60,000 bases of DNA from Malacoraja senta (Eukaryota), in NCBI GenBank assembly GCA_038087875.1, contig CM075988.1, positions 13,270,001 to 13,330,000 of the forward strand, read 5' to 3'. The notes beneath the pieces were generated by a model. It was not told the DNA's origin. It ran no database searches and worked only from the letters and a program-made list of their open reading frames with translations. Made by a program: the position numbers and the translations under genes. The first letter of the stretch is position 1; the number at the start of each line of letters is the position of its first letter. This document shows, piece by piece, positions 18,040-55,862 of this stretch.

Positions 18040-18610
18040 TCAGGAGTTCATGAGATAAGGTCCAAGTACACACCCCAATCAAAACCAATAGTACTGAAGA
18101 GAAGTGTAGGAAGGGACTGCAGATACTAGTTTAAACCAAAGATAGATACAAAAAGCTGGAGTAACTCAGCGGGACAGGGAACATCCCTGGAGAGAAGGAA
18201 TGGGTGACATTTGGGCTGGTGTCTGGCTGGTGTCTGAAGAAGAGTCTCAACCTGAAACATCACCCGTTCCTTCTCTCCAGAGATGCTGCCTATCCCGCTG
18301 AGTTACTCCAGCTTTTTGTGTCTATCTTCGTGCTGAAGAGAAGTTGGATGAGAACTTCAAGTTCCAAGGTGTAAATATCACCAACAATTTGTCCTGGATC
18401 AACCACGTTGAAGCTATGACCAAGAGAGCACACTCGCACCTCTACCACCTCAGAAGATCAAGGAAGTTCAGCACGTCTTCACGACTCTTACCAACTTCTA
18501 CAAATGTACCATAGAAAGCATCCCACTTAGGAGAGTTGTGAATGTAGCCCAGTCCATCGCACAGGCCAGCCTCCGCACAATCTGCTCCATCTACACTTCA
18601 TGCCTCGAGA
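18040..18610 (+). pseudogene. Rex1/Babar-like LINE RT C-terminal remnant (interrupted at 18106-18329)
   Basis: Translates approximately FKFQGVNITNNLSWINHVEAMTKRAHSHLYHLRR...TNFYKCTIESI. Confidence 0.75.
18106..18329. mobile_element. Fold-back Penelope-like short element
   Basis: Inverted arms; TSD GT(A/G)CTGAAGAGAAGT at 18091-18105 and 18330-18344. Confidence 0.9.
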
Positions 18611-29330: not shown

Positions 29331-29532
29331 ACGTGGGTAGAACTGGAAAGATGAAGAAGCAGTCACCTGCTTCTGCATCCTCGTGGATATAATTAGCTTT
29401 GGTGAAAACGTTTAATTTTTTTAATGTAAATTCCATGTGCTCCCTTCAATACCATTGTTAACGATCAAGTGTCAACAGTGTTTTATTGTCTTGTAATGAT
29501 GTTTTCCCTTGTGGGAGAGTCTAGGACTAGAA

Positions 29533-32351
29533 ACATAGAAACATAGAAATTAGGTGCAGGAGTAGGCCATTCGGCCCTTCGAGCCTGCACCGCCATTCAA
29601 TACGATCATGGCTGATCATCCAACTCAGTATCCCGTACCTGCCTTCTCTCCATACCCCCTGATCCCCTTAGCCACAAGGGCCACATCTAACTCCCTCTTA
29701 AATATAGCTAATGAACTGGCCTCGACTACCCTCTGTGGCAGAGAGTTCCAGAGATTCACCACTCTCTGTGTGAAAAAAGTTCTTCTCATCTCAGTTTTAA
29801 AGGATTTCCCCCTTATCCTTAAGCTGTGACCCCTTGTCCTGGACTTCCCCAACATCGGGAGCAATCTTCCTGCATCTAGCCTGTCCAACCCCTTAAGAAT
29901 TTTGTACGTTTCTATAAGATCCCCTCTCAATCTCCTAAATTCTAGAGAGTATAAACCAAGTCTATCCAGTCTTTCTTCATAAGACAGTCCTGACATCCCA
30001 GGAATCAGTCTGGTGAACCTTCTCTGCACTCCCTCTATGGCAATAATGTCCTTCCTCAGATTTGGAGACCAAAATTGTACGCAATACTCCAGGTGTGGTC
30101 TCACCAAGACCCTGTACAACTGCAGTAGAACCTCCCTGCTCCTATACTCAAATCCTTTTGCTATGAAAGCTAACATACCATTCGCTTTCTTCACTGCCTG
30201 CTGCACCTGCATGCCTACTTTCAATGACTGGTGTACCATGACACCCAGGTCTCGCTGCATCTCCCCTTTTCCTAGTCGGCCACCATTTAGATAATAGCCT
30301 GCTTTCCTGTTTTTGCCACCAAAATGGATAACCTCACATTTATCCACATTATACTGCATCTGCCAAACATTTGCCCACTCACCCAGCCTATCCAAGTCAC
30401 CTTGCAGTCTCCTAGCATCCTCCTCACAGCTAACACTGCCCCCCAGCTTAGTGTCATCTGCAAACTTGGAGATATTGCCTTCAATTCCCTCATCCAGATC
30501 ATTAATATATATTGTAAATAGCTGGGGTCCCAGCACTGAGCCTTGCGGTACCCCACTAGTCACTGCCTGCCATTGTGAAAAGGACCCGTTTACTCCTACT
30601 CTTTGCTTCCTGTTTGCCAGCCAGTTCTCTATCCACATCAATACTGAACCCCCAATGCCATGTGCTTTAAGTTTGTATACTAATCTCTTATGTGGGACCT
30701 TGTCGAAAGCCTTCTGGAAGTCCAGATACACCACATCCACTGGTTCTCCCCTATCCACGCTACTAATTACATCCTCGAAAAATTCTATAAGATTCGTCAG
30801 ACATGATTTACCTTTCGTAAATCCATGCTGACTTTGTCCAATGATTTCACCACTTTCCAAATGTGCTGCTATCCCATCTTTAATAACTGACTCTAGCAGT
30901 TTCCCCACTACCGATGTTAGACTAACTGGTCTGTAATTCCCCGTTGTCTCTCTCCCTCCCTTCTTAAAAAGTGGGGTTACGTTTGCTACCCGCCAATCCT
31001 CAGGAACTACTCCAGAATCTAAAGAGTTTTGAAAGATTATTACTAATGCATCCACTATTTCTGGAGCTACTTCCTTAAGTACTGGGATGCAGCCTATCTG
31101 GCCCTGGGGATTTATCGGACTTTAATCCATTCAATTTACCCAACACCACTTCCCGACTAACCTGGATTTCACTCAATTCCTCCAACTCCTTTGACCCGCG
31201 ATCCCCTGCTATTTCCGGCAGATTATTTATGTCTTCCTTAGTGAAGACGGAACCAAAGTAGTTATTCAATTGGTCCGCCATATCCTTGTTCCCCATGATC
31301 AACTCACCTGTTTCTGACTGCAAGGGACCTACATTTGTTTTAACTAATCTCTTTCTTTTCACATATCTATAAAAACTTTTGCAGTCAGTTTTTTTGTTCC
31401 CTGCCAGTTTTCTTTCATAATCTATTTTTCCTTTCCTAATTAAGCCCTTTGTCCTCCTCTGCTGGTCTCTGAATTTCTCCCAGTCCTCCGGTATGCTGCT
31501 TTTTCTGGCTAATTTGTACGCATCATCCTTCGCTTTGATACCATCCCTGATTTCCCTTGTTATCCACGGATGCACTACCTTCCCTGATTTATTCTTTTGC
31601 CAAACTGGGATGAACAATTTTTGTAGTTCATCCAAGCAGTCTTTAAATGTCTTCCATTGCATATCCACCGTCAACCCTTTTAGAATTAATTGCCAGTCAA
31701 TCTTGGCCAATTCACGTCTCATACCCTCAAAGTTACCTTTCTTTAAGTTCAGAACCATTGTTTCTGAATTAACAATGTCACTCTCCATCCTAATGAAGAA
31801 CTCAACCATATTATGGTCACTCTTGCCCAAGGGGGCACGTACATCAAGACTGCTAACTAACCCTTCCTCATTACTCAATACCCAGTCTAAAATAGCCTGC
31901 TCTCTCGTTGGTTCCTCTACATGTTGATTTAGATAACTATTCCGCATACATTCCAAGAAATCCTCTTCCTCAGCACCCCTGCCAATTTGATTCACCCAAT
32001 CTATATGTAGATTGAAGTCACCCATTATAACTGTTTTGCCTTTGTCGCACGCATTTCTAATTTCCTGTTTGATACCATCTCCAACTTCACTACTACTGTT
32101 AGGTGGCCTGTACCCAACACCCACCAGCGTTTTCTGTCCCTTAGTGTTTCGCAGCTCTACCCATACCGATTCCACATCCTCGAAACGAATGTCCTTCCTT
32201 TCCATTGCGTTAATCTCCTCTCTAATCAGCAACGCTACCCCACCTCCTTTTCCTTTCTCTCTATCCCTCCTGAATATTGAATAGCCCTGGATGTTCAGCT
32301 CCCAGCCTTGGTCACCCTGGAGCCATGTCTCCGTGATCCCAACTATATCAT
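29533..32351 (-). mobile_element. Young CR1 (HER1-like) LINE, 5'-truncated within the endonuclease domain
   Basis: (GTTTCTAT)n tail, 3' stem-loop region, about 2.7 kb of ORF2; probable TSD CTAGAA (29527-29532, 32356-32361). Confidence 0.97.
29625..32350 (-). pseudogene. CR1 ORF2: APE endonuclease + reverse transcriptase, single frameshift near 31082
   Basis: APE motifs DIVGITETW, YRPP, GDFN, LDWV, SDH; RT motifs [36 protein letters not shown]; apparent 2-bp loss in HPRVLKE joins the two ORFs. Confidence 0.95.
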
Positions 32352-32355
32352 TGCC

Positions 32356-45841: not shown

Positions 45842-47205
45842 TAGATACATAGATATATAGAAAATAGGTGCAGGAGTAGGCCATTCGGCCCTTCGAGCCT
45901 GCACTGCCATTCAATATGATCATGGCTGATCATCCAACTCAGTATCCCGTACCTGCCTTCTCTCCATACCCCCTGATCCCTTTAGCCACAAGGGCCACAT
46001 CTAACTCCCTCTTAAATATAGCCAATGAACTGGCCTCAACTACCCTCTGTGGCAGAGAGTTCCAGAGATTCACCACTCTCTGTGTGAAAACGTTTTTTCT
46101 CATCTCGGTCTTAAAGGATTTCCCCCTTATCCTTAAGCTGTGATCCCTTGTCCTGGACTTCCCCAACATCGGGAACAATCTTCCTGCATCTAGCCTGTCC
46201 AACCCCATAAGAATTTTGTACGTTTCTATAAGATCCCCTCTCAATCTCCTAAATTCTAGCGAGTATAAGCCAAGTCTATCCAGTCTTTCTTCATATGAAA
46301 GTCCTGACATCCCAGGAATCAGTCTGGTGAACCTTCTCTGCACTCCCTCTATGGCTATAATGTCCTTCCTCAGATTTGGAGACCAAAACTGTACGCAATA
46401 CTCCAGGTGTGGTCTCACCAAGACCCTGTACAACTGCAGTAGAACCTCCCTGCTCCTATACTCAAATCCTTTTGCTATGAAAGCTAACATACCATTCGCT
46501 TTCTTCACTGCCTGCTGCACCTGCATGCCTACTTTCAATGACTGGTGTACCATGACACCCAGGTCTCGCTGCATCTCCCCTTTTCCTAATCGGCCACCAT
46601 TTAGATAATAGTCTGCTTTCCTGTTTTTGCCACCAAAGTGGATAACCTCACATTTATCCACATTATACTGCATCTGCCAAACATTTGCCCACTCACCCAG
46701 CCTATCCAAGTCACCTTGCAGTCTCCTAGCATCCTCCTCACAGCTAACACTGCCCCCCCAGCTTAGTGTCATCCGCAAACTTGGAGATGTTGCCTTCAAT
46801 TCCCTCATCCAGTTCATTAATATAAATTGTAAATAGCTGGGGTCCCAGCACTGAGCCTTGCGGTACCCCACTAGTCACTGCCTGCCATTGTGAAAAGGAC
46901 CCGTTTACTCCTACTCTTTGCTTCCTGTTTGCCAGCCAGTTCTCTATCCACATCAATACTGAACCCCCAATACCATGTGCTTTAAGTTTGTATACTAATC
47001 TCTTATGTGGGACCTTGTCGAAAGCCTTCTGAAAGTCCAGATACAACACATCCACTGGTTCACCCTATCCACTCTACTAGTTACATCCTCGAAAAATTCT
47101 ATAAGATTCGTCAGACATGATTTACCTTTCGTAAATCCATGCTGACTTTGTCCAATGATTTCACCACTTTCCAAATGTGCTGCTATCCCATCTTTAATAA
47201 CTGAC
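45842..47205 (-). mobile_element. Young CR1, 5'-truncated in RT; sister of 29533-32351
   Basis: About 97% identical by eye; 8-bp TSD TCTTTACA (45834-45841, 47206-47213); +1 C in a homopolymer (46753-46759) frameshifts ORF2. Confidence 0.97.
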
Positions 47206-49670: not shown

Positions 49671-50283
49671 TGGAAGGTGACCCCTGCTTCTCTATATAAA
49701 TACAAAATGAGAGGCAGATACATTGTTAATACATTTGTCAAGACGTCTCCATTTTGTAGTTCTATGAATAGGCTTCCCTTAGGGAATTATATTAATGATT
49801 TTAAAAGTCAGGGCAACGAGAAAATCCCATTCTTTCCAGTGAGTTGTTAAAGTGATTCCAATGAGATTCCCAGGACAATAATCTCTCATAGATAGCCCGT
49901 GTGGAGGAACAATTTGAACCAAATAAGTTGTCCTATAATCATGCTGAGAACAATCATTTATAAAACCTAATCAAATCTTGAAGTGCGGGTATTTATTATG
50001 ACGCAATGGTAAATTAAATGCTCATTTTTTCATCTGCCTGTCTTCAGGCATATAATGCACATAGTGAACACAATCTATATTACTAAAAGTCTGATCTTGA
50101 CCGCTTTTGGCTCGCTATGGTGTGATTTCCGAGAGAACGCCGCCACCTACGGCTGTCATTTTTGGCCACCTTGCTCAGAGCCCCCCTCCGCCTTCCTGGA
50201 CCAGAGGATTTTTCCCATCGATGAAAAATCAGAGAGATATTAATGTTTTTCAATAATTTGCCATTCTCTCTGCTGCCCCTGCT

Positions 50284-50416
50284 GGAGGGAGGGGGAGGGA
50301 CTATAAAACCAGGAAGTGGTGTGCCTCACTCAGTCTCTGCAAGATGGAGGAAGCCAGAGGGTCACGTCTCTCTGAGCTCTGAATAACACTGAACACATGT
50401 CTACTCAACTGTGAGT
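50284..50416 (+). promoter_or_regulatory. Pol II core-promoter-like module in Helitron, copy 1
   Basis: GGGAGGGGGAGGG, TATAAAA 50302-50308, CAGGAAGT, Inr TCAGTCT with A at 50332 (30 nt after TATA start), donor GTGAGT 50411-50416. Confidence 0.5.
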
Positions 50417-50444
50417 GCCCTTAATGTGGTTTGAAAATGAAAAT

Positions 50445-51827
50445 ATGGTTGGTTTGAAGTAAAAAGGCACTGCCTGCAAATGGTTGTTTGGGGGGATTTG
50501 GGTAGAAGTTAAAAGGCACTAGAGCAAATGGTGGTTTGAGTGCTTTGGCTTGAAGTTAAAAGGCACTACTGCAAATGGTGGTTTAGTAGGTATGTTACAA
50601 AACTTACCTTCAGCGGCGCTGCTGTTCTGTCACTGTCCGTGTGCGCGACTTTGGCGCCTTTGAGAGGGGGGCGGGTTTAAAATGCGATATTTCGGCAGCC
50701 TGTTCTAAACGATCTTGAACAGACTAAATAGTTGATGAAGAAAAATTGCTTTGACTGCAGTTTTATTAAGTTTATTAAAATTAGCACTTTATAATTGAAT
50801 TGTTGGAGTAAAATTAAAATCATCTTCAAATGCCGTCAACGCCGACAACGGGACGGATTTCACGCATGGGACAAGGCAACGTTTATTTTTTCATATAAAC
50901 TTGCTTCTTAGGATGCCTTTGATAAAAATTTCAAGTTGCGAAAATGTGATTATTTAAATATACCAACCGGCAGTATTTTTCCTGCCGATATTGGGGTTTA
51001 ATTCAGTGCAACTGCAGCATTCCAAACCAGCGCGTTCCACAAAATCCCACTCACAAGATGATTTAAATGGCCATTAATTTACAGGAATTAAACACTAAAT
51101 TCCTTCCATTTGGCCTATAAATTAATGACAATGAGATTTAAAAATAATGTTATATTGTGAATTCTTGTGTGAATGTTATTTGGACACTTAAGCTTTTTTT
51201 AAATGTTAACTTTTTCTTAAGAAATGGATAGATATTTAGATCTAGTAATTGAATTTTGTAATTAGCTACAATTGGGTAACTAACTAATTATATGCTTTAA
51301 TTTCAGGTCATCCAAGTAAGATTGTTTCATATTTGTTTCAGAATGCTTCAATCTATAATAACTGAAAATTTCATTAAGTTCTCTTAATTTTTAAGAAAGT
51401 TATAGGCTTTTGACTGTCCTTGATCACAGCTTTTGTGTTAAGTCAATGGAAAAGCAATAGGGAACAAGATGCTAATTTCCAAGTATGAAAATGGCCATAA
51501 CTTTTTTAATACTGAAGATATGAAAGTGAATTAGGTGTCAAATTAAACTTCTTTTTATACTTTGTCTGATGAGATAAATTGCAGACTTGATTTTTTAAAT
51601 CTCAAAATTTTGTAACATTGCTAGGTTTAGGTGCTTTGGCTTGAAGTTGAAAGGCACTACTGCAAATGGTGGTTTGGGTGCTTTGGCTTGAAGTTAAAAG
51701 GCACTACTACAAATGGTGGTTTGTGTGCTTTGGCTTGAAGTTAAAAGGCACTACTGCAAATGGTGGTTTGGGTGCTTTGGCTTGAAGTTAAAAGGCACTA
51801 CTACAAATGGTGGTTTGGGTGCTTTGG
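50445..51827. repeat. 47-bp minisatellite (about 7 copies) split by the 50587-51623 insertion
   Basis: Unit GTGCTTTGGCTTGAAGTTAAAAGGCACTACTGCAAATGGTGGTTTGG. Confidence 0.93.
50587..51623. mobile_element. 1037-bp non-autonomous TIR DNA transposon (hAT-like TAG termini, 7-bp TSD)
   Basis: TIR TAGGTATGTTACAAAA / TTTTGTAACATTGCTA (14/16); TSD GGTTTAG 50580-50586 and 51624-51630; no ORF. Confidence 0.85.
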
Positions 51828-52036
51828 GTAACTTCCTGTTTGCACTGTATATTGTTTTTAGATAAAACGCTACCACTTATGGCTGTGACTTTTGGCCATC
51901 TTACTCAGCCCCCCTCCGCTCAGCAGGTGCAGAAGATTCTTCCCATCAATGAAAAATAAAAGTGTTATTAGTGTTTAAAAAATGTTGATAATCTCTCTCC
52001 TGTCAATCAAGCCATGAAGGACACACCTTTTCCGGT

Positions 52037-52169
52037 GGGAGGGGGAGGGGTTATAAAACCCGGACATGTGGGTGTGGCTCAGTCTCTGCATGATGGGGGA
52101 GGGAGAGGTCACGAATCTGTCTGAGCTGTGAATCAACTGAACACACGGAATGTCTACTGAACTGTGAGT
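52037..52169 (+). promoter_or_regulatory. Pol II core-promoter-like module in Helitron, copy 2
   Basis: GGGAGGGGGAGGGG, TATAAAA 52052-52058, Inr TCAGTCT with A at 52081, donor GTGAGT 52164-52169. Confidence 0.5.
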
Positions 52170-52210
52170 TTGGTGTTTTGTGTGGTTTTATGGTGGTTTT
52201 ATGGTGGTTT

Positions 52211-52850
52211 CACCCTGCTTGAAATGGTATGAAACTGCATTTGAATGTGGTGGCCTTGCACCCTGCATGAAATGGTATGAAACTGCAGTTGAATGTGGTG
52301 GCGTTGCACCCTGCATGAAATGGTATGAAACTGTACTTGAATTTGGTGGCCTTGCACCCTGCTTGAAGTGGAATGAAACTGCACTTCAATTTGGCGGCCT
52401 TGCACCCTGCTTGAAGTGGTATGAAACTGCACTGAATTTGGTGGCCTTGCACCCTGCTGAAAGTATTATGAAACTGCACTTGAATTTGGTGGCCTTGGAT
52501 CCAGCTTGAAGTGGTATGAAACTGCACTTGAATTTGGTGGCCTTGCACTCTACTTGAAGTGGTATGAAACTGCACTTGAATTCGGTGGCCTTGCACCCTG
52601 CTTGAAGTGGTTGGAAACTGCACTTGAATTCGGTGGCCTTGCACCCTGCTTGAAGTGGTAGGAAACTGCACTTGAATTCGGTGGCCTTGCACCCTGCTTG
52701 AAGTGGTAGGAAAGTGCACTTGAATTTGGTGGCCTTGCACCCTGCTCGAAATGGTAAGAAACTGCACTTGAATTTGGTGGCCTTGCACCCTGCTTGAAAT
52801 GGTAGGAAAATGGATTTGAATTTGGTGGCCTTGCACCCTGCTTAAAATGG
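52211..52850. repeat. 48-bp minisatellite, about 13.3 copies
   Basis: Unit CACCCTGCTTGAAGTGGTATGAAACTGCACTTGAATTTGGTGGCCTTG. Confidence 0.97.
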
Positions 52851-53124
52851 AATTTCAAGGAATAGCCATGAGTCAACTGCCAGTCCACCAGCCGTGAGTG
52901 AGCTGCCAGCACATCAGGCTTGAGGGACTGAGCTGCCACCCCAAGAACCCATACCAGCGCTCCAGAAAGCCCCCCCACTGGCCACCAATATTGGAATTGG
53001 TGGAGAGGTGGAATATTGCGTTGGGGGACCAGCCCTCCTGTGTGAACATGGGCCTCAACGGGTCCCACTTAGTCTAGTATTTGATAAAGCCAATGGGTTA
53101 AAGTGAAGCAGCAACAGACTAAAT

Positions 53125-53399
53125 GTGTTGGAAGGAACCGCAGATGCTCGTTTAAACCGAAGATGAACACAAAATGCTGGAGTAACTCAGCAGGACAGGC
53201 AGCATCTCTGGAGAAAAGGAATGGGTGATATTTCGGGTCGAGACCTGAAGCAACATCTCTTAGTCACAGATGTTGATTTATTTTTTAAATCAGACATACT
53301 TTCAGTTGGAAGAAGGGTCTCAATCCAAAATGTCACCCATTCCTCCTCTCCAGAGGTGCTGCCTGTCCCACAGTTACTCAAGCTTTTCGTGTCAATCTT
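53125..53399. mobile_element. Fold-back Penelope-like short element with about 60-bp foreign spacer
   Basis: Inverted arms; perfect 16-bp TSD CAGCAACAGACTAAAT (53109-53124, 53400-53415). Confidence 0.92.
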
Positions 53400-53564
53400 C
53401 AGCAACAGACTAAATATGGCTCACTTACAGGTGTTTACTATTTCATCATCTACAGGTACGTGAGAAATAACTCAACGATCACTGTGATGACTGGATGTAC
53501 AGGTGACCTTTTCCAAGCAGAGTGGCATTTGTGGTTCAAAGAATAGGTTAGGATAGCAGACTGA

Positions 53565-55288: not shown

Positions 55289-55399
55289 CAGTGGCGGACT
55301 GGCCAGGGTGTCAGCTTGCCCGATGGCAAGTGGGCCCCTGATGAAGTGGGCCCCCTTTGTCTCCTGGCAACCAATATTTTTAGACCCAGTCCGCCACTG
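55289..55399. mobile_element. 111-bp hAT MITE (Tip100-like termini)
   Basis: Perfect 14-bp TIR CAGTGGCGGACTGG; perfect 8-bp TSD GGTATGAT (55281-55288, 55400-55407); internal AAGTGGGCCCC x2. Confidence 0.95.
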
Positions 55400-55546: not shown

Positions 55547-55862
55547 GCGGCACGGTGGCGCAGTGGTAGAGTTGCTGCCTTACAGCACTTGCAGCACCAG
55601 AGACCCAGGTTCAATCCCAACTACGGCTGCTGTATGTACGGAGTTTGTACGTTCTATCTGTGACTGCGTGGGTTTTCACTGAGATCTTCGGTTTCCTCTC
55701 ACACTCCAGATGTACAGGTCTGTAGGTTAATTGATTTGGTGTAAGTGTAAATTGTTCGTATTGTGTGTAGGATGGTGTGAATGTGCGGGGATCGCTGGTC
55801 GGTGCGGACTCAGTGGGCCAAAGGTCCAGTTTCCGCGCTGCATCTCTAAACTCTAAACTAAA
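55547..55862 (+). mobile_element. HE1/V-type tRNA SINE
   Basis: A-box TGGCGCAGTGG, B-box GGTTCAATCC, (CTAAA) tail. Confidence 0.93.

What the first reader, a model, noticed from the sequence alone, without database searches (positions are those of the whole stretch)
50284..50416. Helitron carries a duplicated TATA-Inr-exon-splice donor cassette
Seen in both diverged modules: a G-rich Sp/KLF-like box, TATAAAA, Inr TCAGTCT at canonical spacing (30 and 29 nt), and a GTGAGT donor about 80 nt downstream. These motifs are kept while intervening bases differ. Copy 1 also has ETS-like CAGGAAGT and AAGATGG. Inference: a mobile promoter plus non-coding first exon that could splice into downstream host exons wherever the Helitron lands.
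Basis: partly seen in the sequence, partly recalled or inferred. Interest (0 to 1): 0.7.

Follow-up and report, generated by a model that had tools for sequence, protein, structure and literature searches.

The report
Helitron with two stacked promoter ends
A gene-less rolling-circle transposon (Helitron) carries two diverged copies of a textbook promoter, short first exon and splice signal, which are likely the parent transposon's own gene start inherited through two fused left ends; the one raw RNA library tested gave no sign that they start or splice transcripts, and a portable promoter of this kind is already known from bats.

Summary
The motifs are real and at the stated spacing in both modules, and the layout is rare by chance (0.07 per simulated 60 kb). 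They lie in a non-autonomous canonical Helitron (50074-53077; A|TC...CTAG|T; left end confirmed by reads) whose DNA is held by runs of 10 coded organisms. Module 2 is not a local duplicate: reads show its sequence joined directly to the Helitron terminus in other copies, so this copy is two sister left ends stacked. Across family reads, variants avoid TATA, Inr and donor (1 of 20 against 28 of 97 positions, p=0.017). Corrections: the exon is 85% conserved too, and holds a 12-codon uORF plus an ATG open to the donor. In one polyA library (a related organism, tissue unknown, 6% read) no start pile at the Inr and no splice at the donor showed. Best reading: the RepHel parent's own promoter and first exon (inferred; no parent could be fetched). 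Exon trapping is possible, unshown, and precedented by bat HelibatN3. New member of a known kind; interest 0.25.

The parts
50074..53077 (+). Non-autonomous canonical Helitron (HLE1), composite, about 3.0 kb
   Evidence: A|TC start and CTAG|T end in the sequence; left boundary from loose ends; no RepHel remnant
50074..50102 (+). Left terminus (TCTATATTACTAAAAG...), shared by several subfamilies
   Evidence: 194 RNA reads and 119 DNA contigs leave the window just before 50073 into unlike, AT-rich flanks (agreement 0.41 and 0.37)
50103..50416 (+). Module 1: left subterminal region of subfamily A with promoter-like cassette
50287..50299 (+). G-rich box (Sp/KLF-like; label recalled)
   Evidence: 13 of 13 identical in module 2; minor variants at 50290 and 50293 in reads
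50302..50308 (+). TATA box TATAAAA
   Evidence: no listed variant
50310..50317 (+). ETS-like site; 167 of 319 RNA reads have C at 50311, giving CCGGAAGT (canonical ETS core, recalled); not kept in module 2
50330..50336 (+). Initiator-like TCAGTCT, predicted start at A 50332
   Evidence: no start pile
50332..50410 (+). Predicted first exon, 79 nt, with a 12-codon uORF (50344-50382, strong start context) and a second ATG at 50397 open to the donor in phase 2
50411..50416 (+). Splice-donor-like ACT|GTGAGT
   Evidence: only listed variant is +3 G>A, still a donor
50449..50584 (+). 47-bp minisatellite, left part (2.8 copies)
50587..51623 (+). Nested 1037-bp element with inverted ends (16 of 20 identical) and a 7-bp GGTTTAG duplication, inserted in the 47-bp array
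51624..51827 (+). 47-bp minisatellite, right part (4.3 copies, 95% matches)
51833..52169 (+). Module 2: left subterminal region of sister subfamily B lacking its first ~29 nt; G box 52037, TATA 52052, Inr 52079, exon 52081-52163 with the same uORF and phase-2 ATG, donor 52164
   Evidence: 71% to module 1 by BLAST; loose-end sequences of other copies match it at 51845 and 51977
52211..52850 (+). 48-bp minisatellite (13.4 copies), probably related to the 47-bp unit
   Evidence: 21 of 3000 shuffles reach the alignment score
53049..53077 (+). Right terminus: imperfect GC-rich hairpin 53049-53067 and CTAG 53074-53077
   Evidence: -3.9 kcal/mol, not better than shuffles

Best explanation
This is a non-autonomous Helitron built from two stacked left ends of sister subfamilies, and each TATA-Inr-exon-donor cassette is likely the promoter and short first exon of the parent element's own RepHel transposase gene, left behind when the coding region was lost. 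Shown: Helitron left end, two sister modules that also exist as separate left ends, motif constraint, no RepHel in this copy. Inferred: in the autonomous parent, transcription would start at the Inr, the ~80-nt exon (perhaps carrying the first 4-5 codons, MSTQ/E) would splice over a minisatellite-filled first intron into the RepHel frame, and selection on transposing master copies would keep the motifs as subfamilies diverge. The composite would arise when rolling-circle replication began at an upstream left end and ended at the downstream element's right end, or by template switching at the related minisatellites. In scattered copies the cassette is probably silent in most tissues and would only occasionally donate a first exon to a host gene.
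For: Cassette lies 230-340 nt inside the TC terminus and points inward. 66 RNA reads and 82 DNA contigs follow the terminus to 50106 and continue in module-2 sequence (match at 51845 with 1 mismatch, none in 100 shuffles; a second loose end matches 51977). A third variant exon in 33 reads also ends in GTGAGT. Variants avoid the core motifs: 1 of 20 against 28 of 97 positions, Fisher p=0.017; A/T positions only 0 of 14 against 12 of 47, p=0.03 (on the 40 rows shown of 125). Precedents: autonomous HelenXT233 has two left termini in direct repeat, each marking a subfamily (PMC11417382, passages); autonomous Heli1Xen1 has an annotated 5' UTR and factor peaks at its 5' end, and autonomous Heli2Xen is bounded by minisatellites (PMC12001565, section 19 and passages); compound Helitrons from one copy's 5' end and another's 3' end (PMC4224331, passage).
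Against: No autonomous parent could be examined: no genome is held, collection scans found no relative, so the link to RepHel is untested here. No start or splice signal in RNA. Both ATGs vary among reads (50345 T>C in 94 of 227 reads; 50398 T>C in 30 of 167), so a fixed coding role is doubtful. The constraint test uses only the best-supported rows and reads that had to align, which favours conserved seeds.
Confidence: 0.58

Rival explanations
1. Captured host promoter, as in HelibatN3: an ancestral Helitron picked up the promoter, first exon and donor of a host TATA gene, and promoter-bearing copies then spread.
For: Bat Helitrons captured promoters of 15 genes and such exemplars reach higher copy number (PMC4224331, passages). 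No RepHel sequence follows the donor here.
Against: The cassette abuts the terminus and has diverged with it into at least three subfamilies, like a core part and not a cargo. No donor gene was identified, but none could be searched for.
Confidence: 0.15
2. One reading: the cassette is an active portable promoter in non-autonomous copies today, starting at the Inr and splicing into host exons, perhaps in gonad or early embryo; selection on mobile non-autonomous masters keeps it. This can be true together with either origin.
For: Complete layout with constrained motifs. First mates on the minus strand (sense RNA if the library is stranded in the usual way) exceed the other strand 2- to 3.6-fold over the module but are balanced over the outer terminus (169 against 159). 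One contig of run X15 (429 nt, depth 12) stops aligning at 50409 and runs on for 158 other letters. HelibatN3 does this in cells and bats (PMC4778049, passages).
Against: The strand excess begins upstream of the TATA box, and 110 reads run a median 63 nt upstream of the G box, so these molecules did not start at this Inr; at most 7 of 112 sense reads are lost between 50410 and 50413; reads with loose ends at 50378 (33) and 50417 (21) keep the donor unspliced. The X15 contig also covers sequence upstream of the TATA box and the tool calls X15 probably DNA. Even for HelibatN3 only 3 of 46 candidate transcripts had their start in the insertion.
Confidence: 0.17
3. The motifs do nothing for transcription: the left region is conserved as a binding or unwinding platform for the transposase, or simply by descent, and the promoter look is a coincidence of one ancestral sequence.
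For: Other blocks upstream are as well kept (13-nt AGCCCCCCTCCGC, 9-nt TTTTGGCCA and ATGAAAAAT); no RNA support; one origin only.
Against: Correct order and spacing of four elements is rare (0.07-0.23 per 60 kb); cleavage determinants of Helraiser lie within the terminal 40 bp (PMC4778049, passage), far outside the cassette; the one listed donor variant preserves the consensus.
Confidence: 0.1

Closest known systems
HelibatN3 of vespertilionid bats (PMC4778049, passages; PMC4224331, passages)
   Same: Non-autonomous canonical Helitron carrying a promoter, a few codons and a splice donor, able in principle to trap downstream exons.
   Different: HelibatN3's cassette is a traced host fragment (NUBPL) and was shown to work; here no host source is known, the cassette is TATA-type, occurs twice in diverged form next to the left end, and use is unshown.
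HelenXT233 of Xenopus tropicalis (PMC11417382, passages)
   Same: Two non-identical left termini in direct repeat, each marking a separate non-autonomous subfamily.
   Different: It is an autonomous HLE2 (Helentron) with inverted ends; no promoter layout was described in the passages read.
Heli1Xen1 and Heli2Xen of Xenopus laevis (PMC12001565, outline, section 19, passages, supplement search)
   Same: Vertebrate Helitrons with a presumed 5' promoter region and 5' UTR on the autonomous copy; minisatellites at the ends.
   Different: No sequence link shown: two motifs of this element were not found in 5 readable supplements; the FASTA supplement could not be read and may bear on this.

Membership tests
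Canonical Helitron (HLE1), non-autonomous | 5' TC start at a sharp boundary | tested here: met
   TC at 50074; 194 reads and 119 contigs diverge just before 50073; family depth ends there
Canonical Helitron (HLE1), non-autonomous | 3' CTRR end | tested here: met
   CTAG at 53074-53077; boundary not checked with reads
Canonical Helitron (HLE1), non-autonomous | Short hairpin just before the 3' end | tested here: inconclusive
   Imperfect GC-rich stem 53049-53067, -3.9 kcal/mol, z -0.26
Canonical Helitron (HLE1), non-autonomous | Insertion between A and T, no target duplication | tested here: met
   A at 50073, T at 53078; other copies also match the A at 50073; no empty site seen
Canonical Helitron (HLE1), non-autonomous | No RepHel in the copy | tested here: met
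   No Pfam Helitron or PIF1 hit in 317 open frames of the window; tblastn with a distant RepHel gave no hit at E<=1
Canonical Helitron (HLE1), non-autonomous | Autonomous RepHel partner with the same ends | not testable with these tools
   No genome held; no relative in the collections
HelibatN3-type promoter-capture Helitron | Promoter, first exon and donor inside the element | tested here: met
   Sequence layout only
HelibatN3-type promoter-capture Helitron | Cassette traced to a host gene | not testable with these tools
   No eukaryote genome collection on hand
HelibatN3-type promoter-capture Helitron | Transcripts start in the element and splice from its donor | tested here: inconclusive
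   Not seen in one raw polyA library and two contig runs of guessed kind; weak test
HLE2 / Helentron | Short terminal inverted repeats and T|T insertion | tested here: not met
   Ends are TC and CTAG between A and T (definitions from PMC11417382)

The most novel reading that the evidence does not exclude
A Helitron family with on the order of ten thousand copies or more, shared by many cartilaginous-fish species, has scattered complete TATA promoters with a first exon and donor through their genomes; it fires in germ line or early embryo, supplies alternative first exons to many host genes, and stacking of left ends multiplies the promoters and favours the spread of composite copies.
Probability: 0.15. 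Interest if true: 0.6.

Novelty: new member of a known kind. Interest (0 to 1): 0.25.

Why it matters
If the best reading holds, it marks where a vertebrate Helitron's own transposase promoter and first exon lie, which is little described, and explains the 'duplication' by ordinary left-end stacking: useful for annotation, not surprising. If the cassette also works in scattered copies, it would be a large source of ready-made alternative promoters in a slowly evolving vertebrate lineage, the HelibatN3 mechanism at larger scale and from the element's own parts.

Tried and rejected
No own genome. Rfam: 0 matches in the window. Bacterial promoter scan is irrelevant here. Left-end patterns: 0 hits in metagenome and prokaryote genome contigs. 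TATA-Inr pattern: 0 in viral contigs, 12 in metagenome contigs, none with BLAST similarity to the element (best E 0.085): chance matches, dropped. A Rep-motif scan of viral contigs gave 4 loci, one a Helitron RepHel (L016); used only to show that the window has no RepHel remnant. I did not run the large protein searches with it: so distant a query was unlikely to reach the parent, and hits carry no genomic context. Pfam on all 317 open frames of 55 aa or more: only LINE RT and endonuclease pass cut-offs; short host exons could be missed. Strand-skew binomial tests are pseudo-replicated and not used as statistics. YY1 reading of AAGATGG: not kept in module 2 and 50341 varies in 110 of 252 reads, so rejected as a family feature. 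An acceptor-like site at 51926 and ten more downstream are untested. Look-ups by sequence in earlier findings gave nothing. Literature: no paper held Helitron + minisatellite + TATA box + initiator; listings for Helitron with elasmobranch or skate terms and with zebrafish chimeric transcripts showed no title on this family (listings only).

Full report
Observation. The Inr A lies 30 and 29 nt from the TATA T and the donors 79 and 83 nt further on. The strict layout appears 0.07 times per 60 kb in 60 Markov simulations and in the real window only at these two places; a loose version appears 0.23 times and at one further place. All 33 motif bases are identical between the modules, against a mean of 26 and a maximum of 31 for 313 shifted masks, though the motifs were chosen after the fact. 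The modules are 71% alike by BLAST. The claim that only motifs are kept is too strong: the rest of the exon is 63 of 74 identical, the upstream region 137 of 184.

The element. The sequence runs A|TCTATATTACTAAAAG at 50074 to CTAG|T at 53077, with an imperfect GC-rich stem 10 nt before the end; these are the marks of a canonical Helitron (PMC11417382, passages). Reads fix the left boundary: 194 RNA reads and 119 DNA contigs leave the window just before 50073 into unlike AT-rich flanks. In DNA run X7 summed contig depth is 6-12 on the flank and mostly 1-5 x 10^5 on the element; the tool warns that this is no copy number, so I take it only as a rough sign of a very abundant family. Runs of 10 coded organisms (A-J) hold the DNA; 14 of 22 listed runs hold half or more of its words. 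The host looks like a cartilaginous fish from its SINEs and CR1-like LINEs (labels recalled, not from a call). Inside: module 1, a 47-bp minisatellite split by a 1037-bp element with inverted ends, module 2, a 48-bp minisatellite probably related to the 47-bp one (21 of 3000 shuffles), then the right end. There is no RepHel remnant and no Pfam-detectable host exon in the window.

Why two cassettes. Other copies follow the terminus to 50106 and then continue in a sequence that in this window occurs only at the start of module 2 (66 RNA reads, 82 DNA contigs; match at 51845); a second loose end at 50248 matches module 2 at 51977. So module 2 is the left end of a sister subfamily that elsewhere has its own terminus, and this copy is two left ends in series. 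Precedents are HelenXT233 with two left termini in direct repeat (PMC11417382, passages) and compound bat Helitrons (PMC4224331, passage).

Constraint. Among the 40 best-supported variant rows of 125, none falls in TATA or Inr and one in the donor (+3 G>A, still a donor): 1 of 20 motif positions against 28 of 97 others in 50300-50416 (p=0.017; A/T positions only p=0.03). The 40 rows shown of 166 have none in these motifs. A third exon variant in 33 reads also ends in GTGAGT. Alignment favours conserved seeds and most rows were hidden, so this is moderate evidence. The ETS-like site reads CCGGAAGT in about half the reads; the AAGATGG is not kept. Both window exons hold a 12-codon uORF and an ATG 14 nt before the donor (MSTQ, MSTE; phase 2), so 'non-coding' is not safe, but both ATGs vary among reads.

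Expression. One raw polyA library (X22, organism K, tissue unknown, about 6% read) gave 1054 and 502 laid reads. No place where many molecules begin was listed; presumed-sense depth was 245 before and 233 after the Inr, and 119 on both sides of the donor, with at most 7 of 112 reads lost between 50410 and 50413; the six best loose ends (19 reads or more; 12 of 80 rows shown over both runs) include none at 50410, and those at 50378 and 50417 keep the donor unspliced. Many reads cross the left terminus into flanks on both strands, which is host read-through. For use: a 2- to 3.6-fold strand excess over the module, absent over the outer terminus, but it starts upstream of the TATA box; and one X15 contig leaves the window at 50409 with 158 unseen letters, but it covers upstream sequence and the run is probably DNA. 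The test is weak, so use is neither shown nor refuted.

Mechanism. The best reading (0.58) is that the cassette is the RepHel parent's own promoter and first exon, kept by selection on transposing masters and carried passively by deleted, stacked derivatives. The autonomous Xenopus Heli1Xen1 has an annotated 5' UTR and factor peaks at its 5' end and Heli2Xen has terminal minisatellites (PMC12001565, section 19 and passages). The link to RepHel is inferred: no parent could be fetched. Rivals: active portable promoter today (0.17), captured host promoter (0.15), no transcriptional role (0.10).

Comparison and verdict. This element works like it at best; membership in the promoter-capture class is untested because no host source or transcript is known. 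Earlier AI notes on Helitrons of other genomes reach the same reading; I could not tie them to this family by sequence and count them as leads only. No paper on this family turned up (listings). New member of a known kind; interest 0.25.

Noticed in passing
window 50587-51623: 1037-bp element with inverted ends (16 of 20 identical) and a 7-bp GGTTTAG duplication nested in the Helitron's 47-bp minisatellite; hAT-like ends (recalled), but 7 rather than 8 bp duplication.
   Followed up: partly
window 55289-55399: 111-bp miniature inverted-repeat element (CAGTGGCGGACTGG ends) with an 8-bp GGTATGAT duplication, hAT-like (label recalled); read.
   Followed up: no
window 29528-32355 and 45842-47064: Two young LINE copies, 95-98% alike over the blocks shown, with RT and endonuclease frames.
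   Followed up: partly
window, many places (e.g. 53114-53403, 55547-55857, 18093-18330): Dense dispersed repeats: a tRNA-headed SINE-like family and a self-inverted ~200-bp family with 12 or more copies.
   Followed up: no
window 50284-50291 (reads): A third subfamily in run X22 (110 reads) replaces the sequence upstream of the G box with one holding TGACTGA/TGATTG-like words and dominates the presumed-sense excess.
   Followed up: no
L016 400-4577 (IMG/VR giant-virus bin contig): A Helitron RepHel in separate frames (Helitron_like_N E 1.8e-37, PIF1 E 2.3e-49) on a contig filed as giant virus.
   Followed up: partly
window 51909-51926: Acceptor-like C-rich tract with CAGCAG in module 2's upstream region, to which exon 1 of module 1 could splice; untested.
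   Followed up: no
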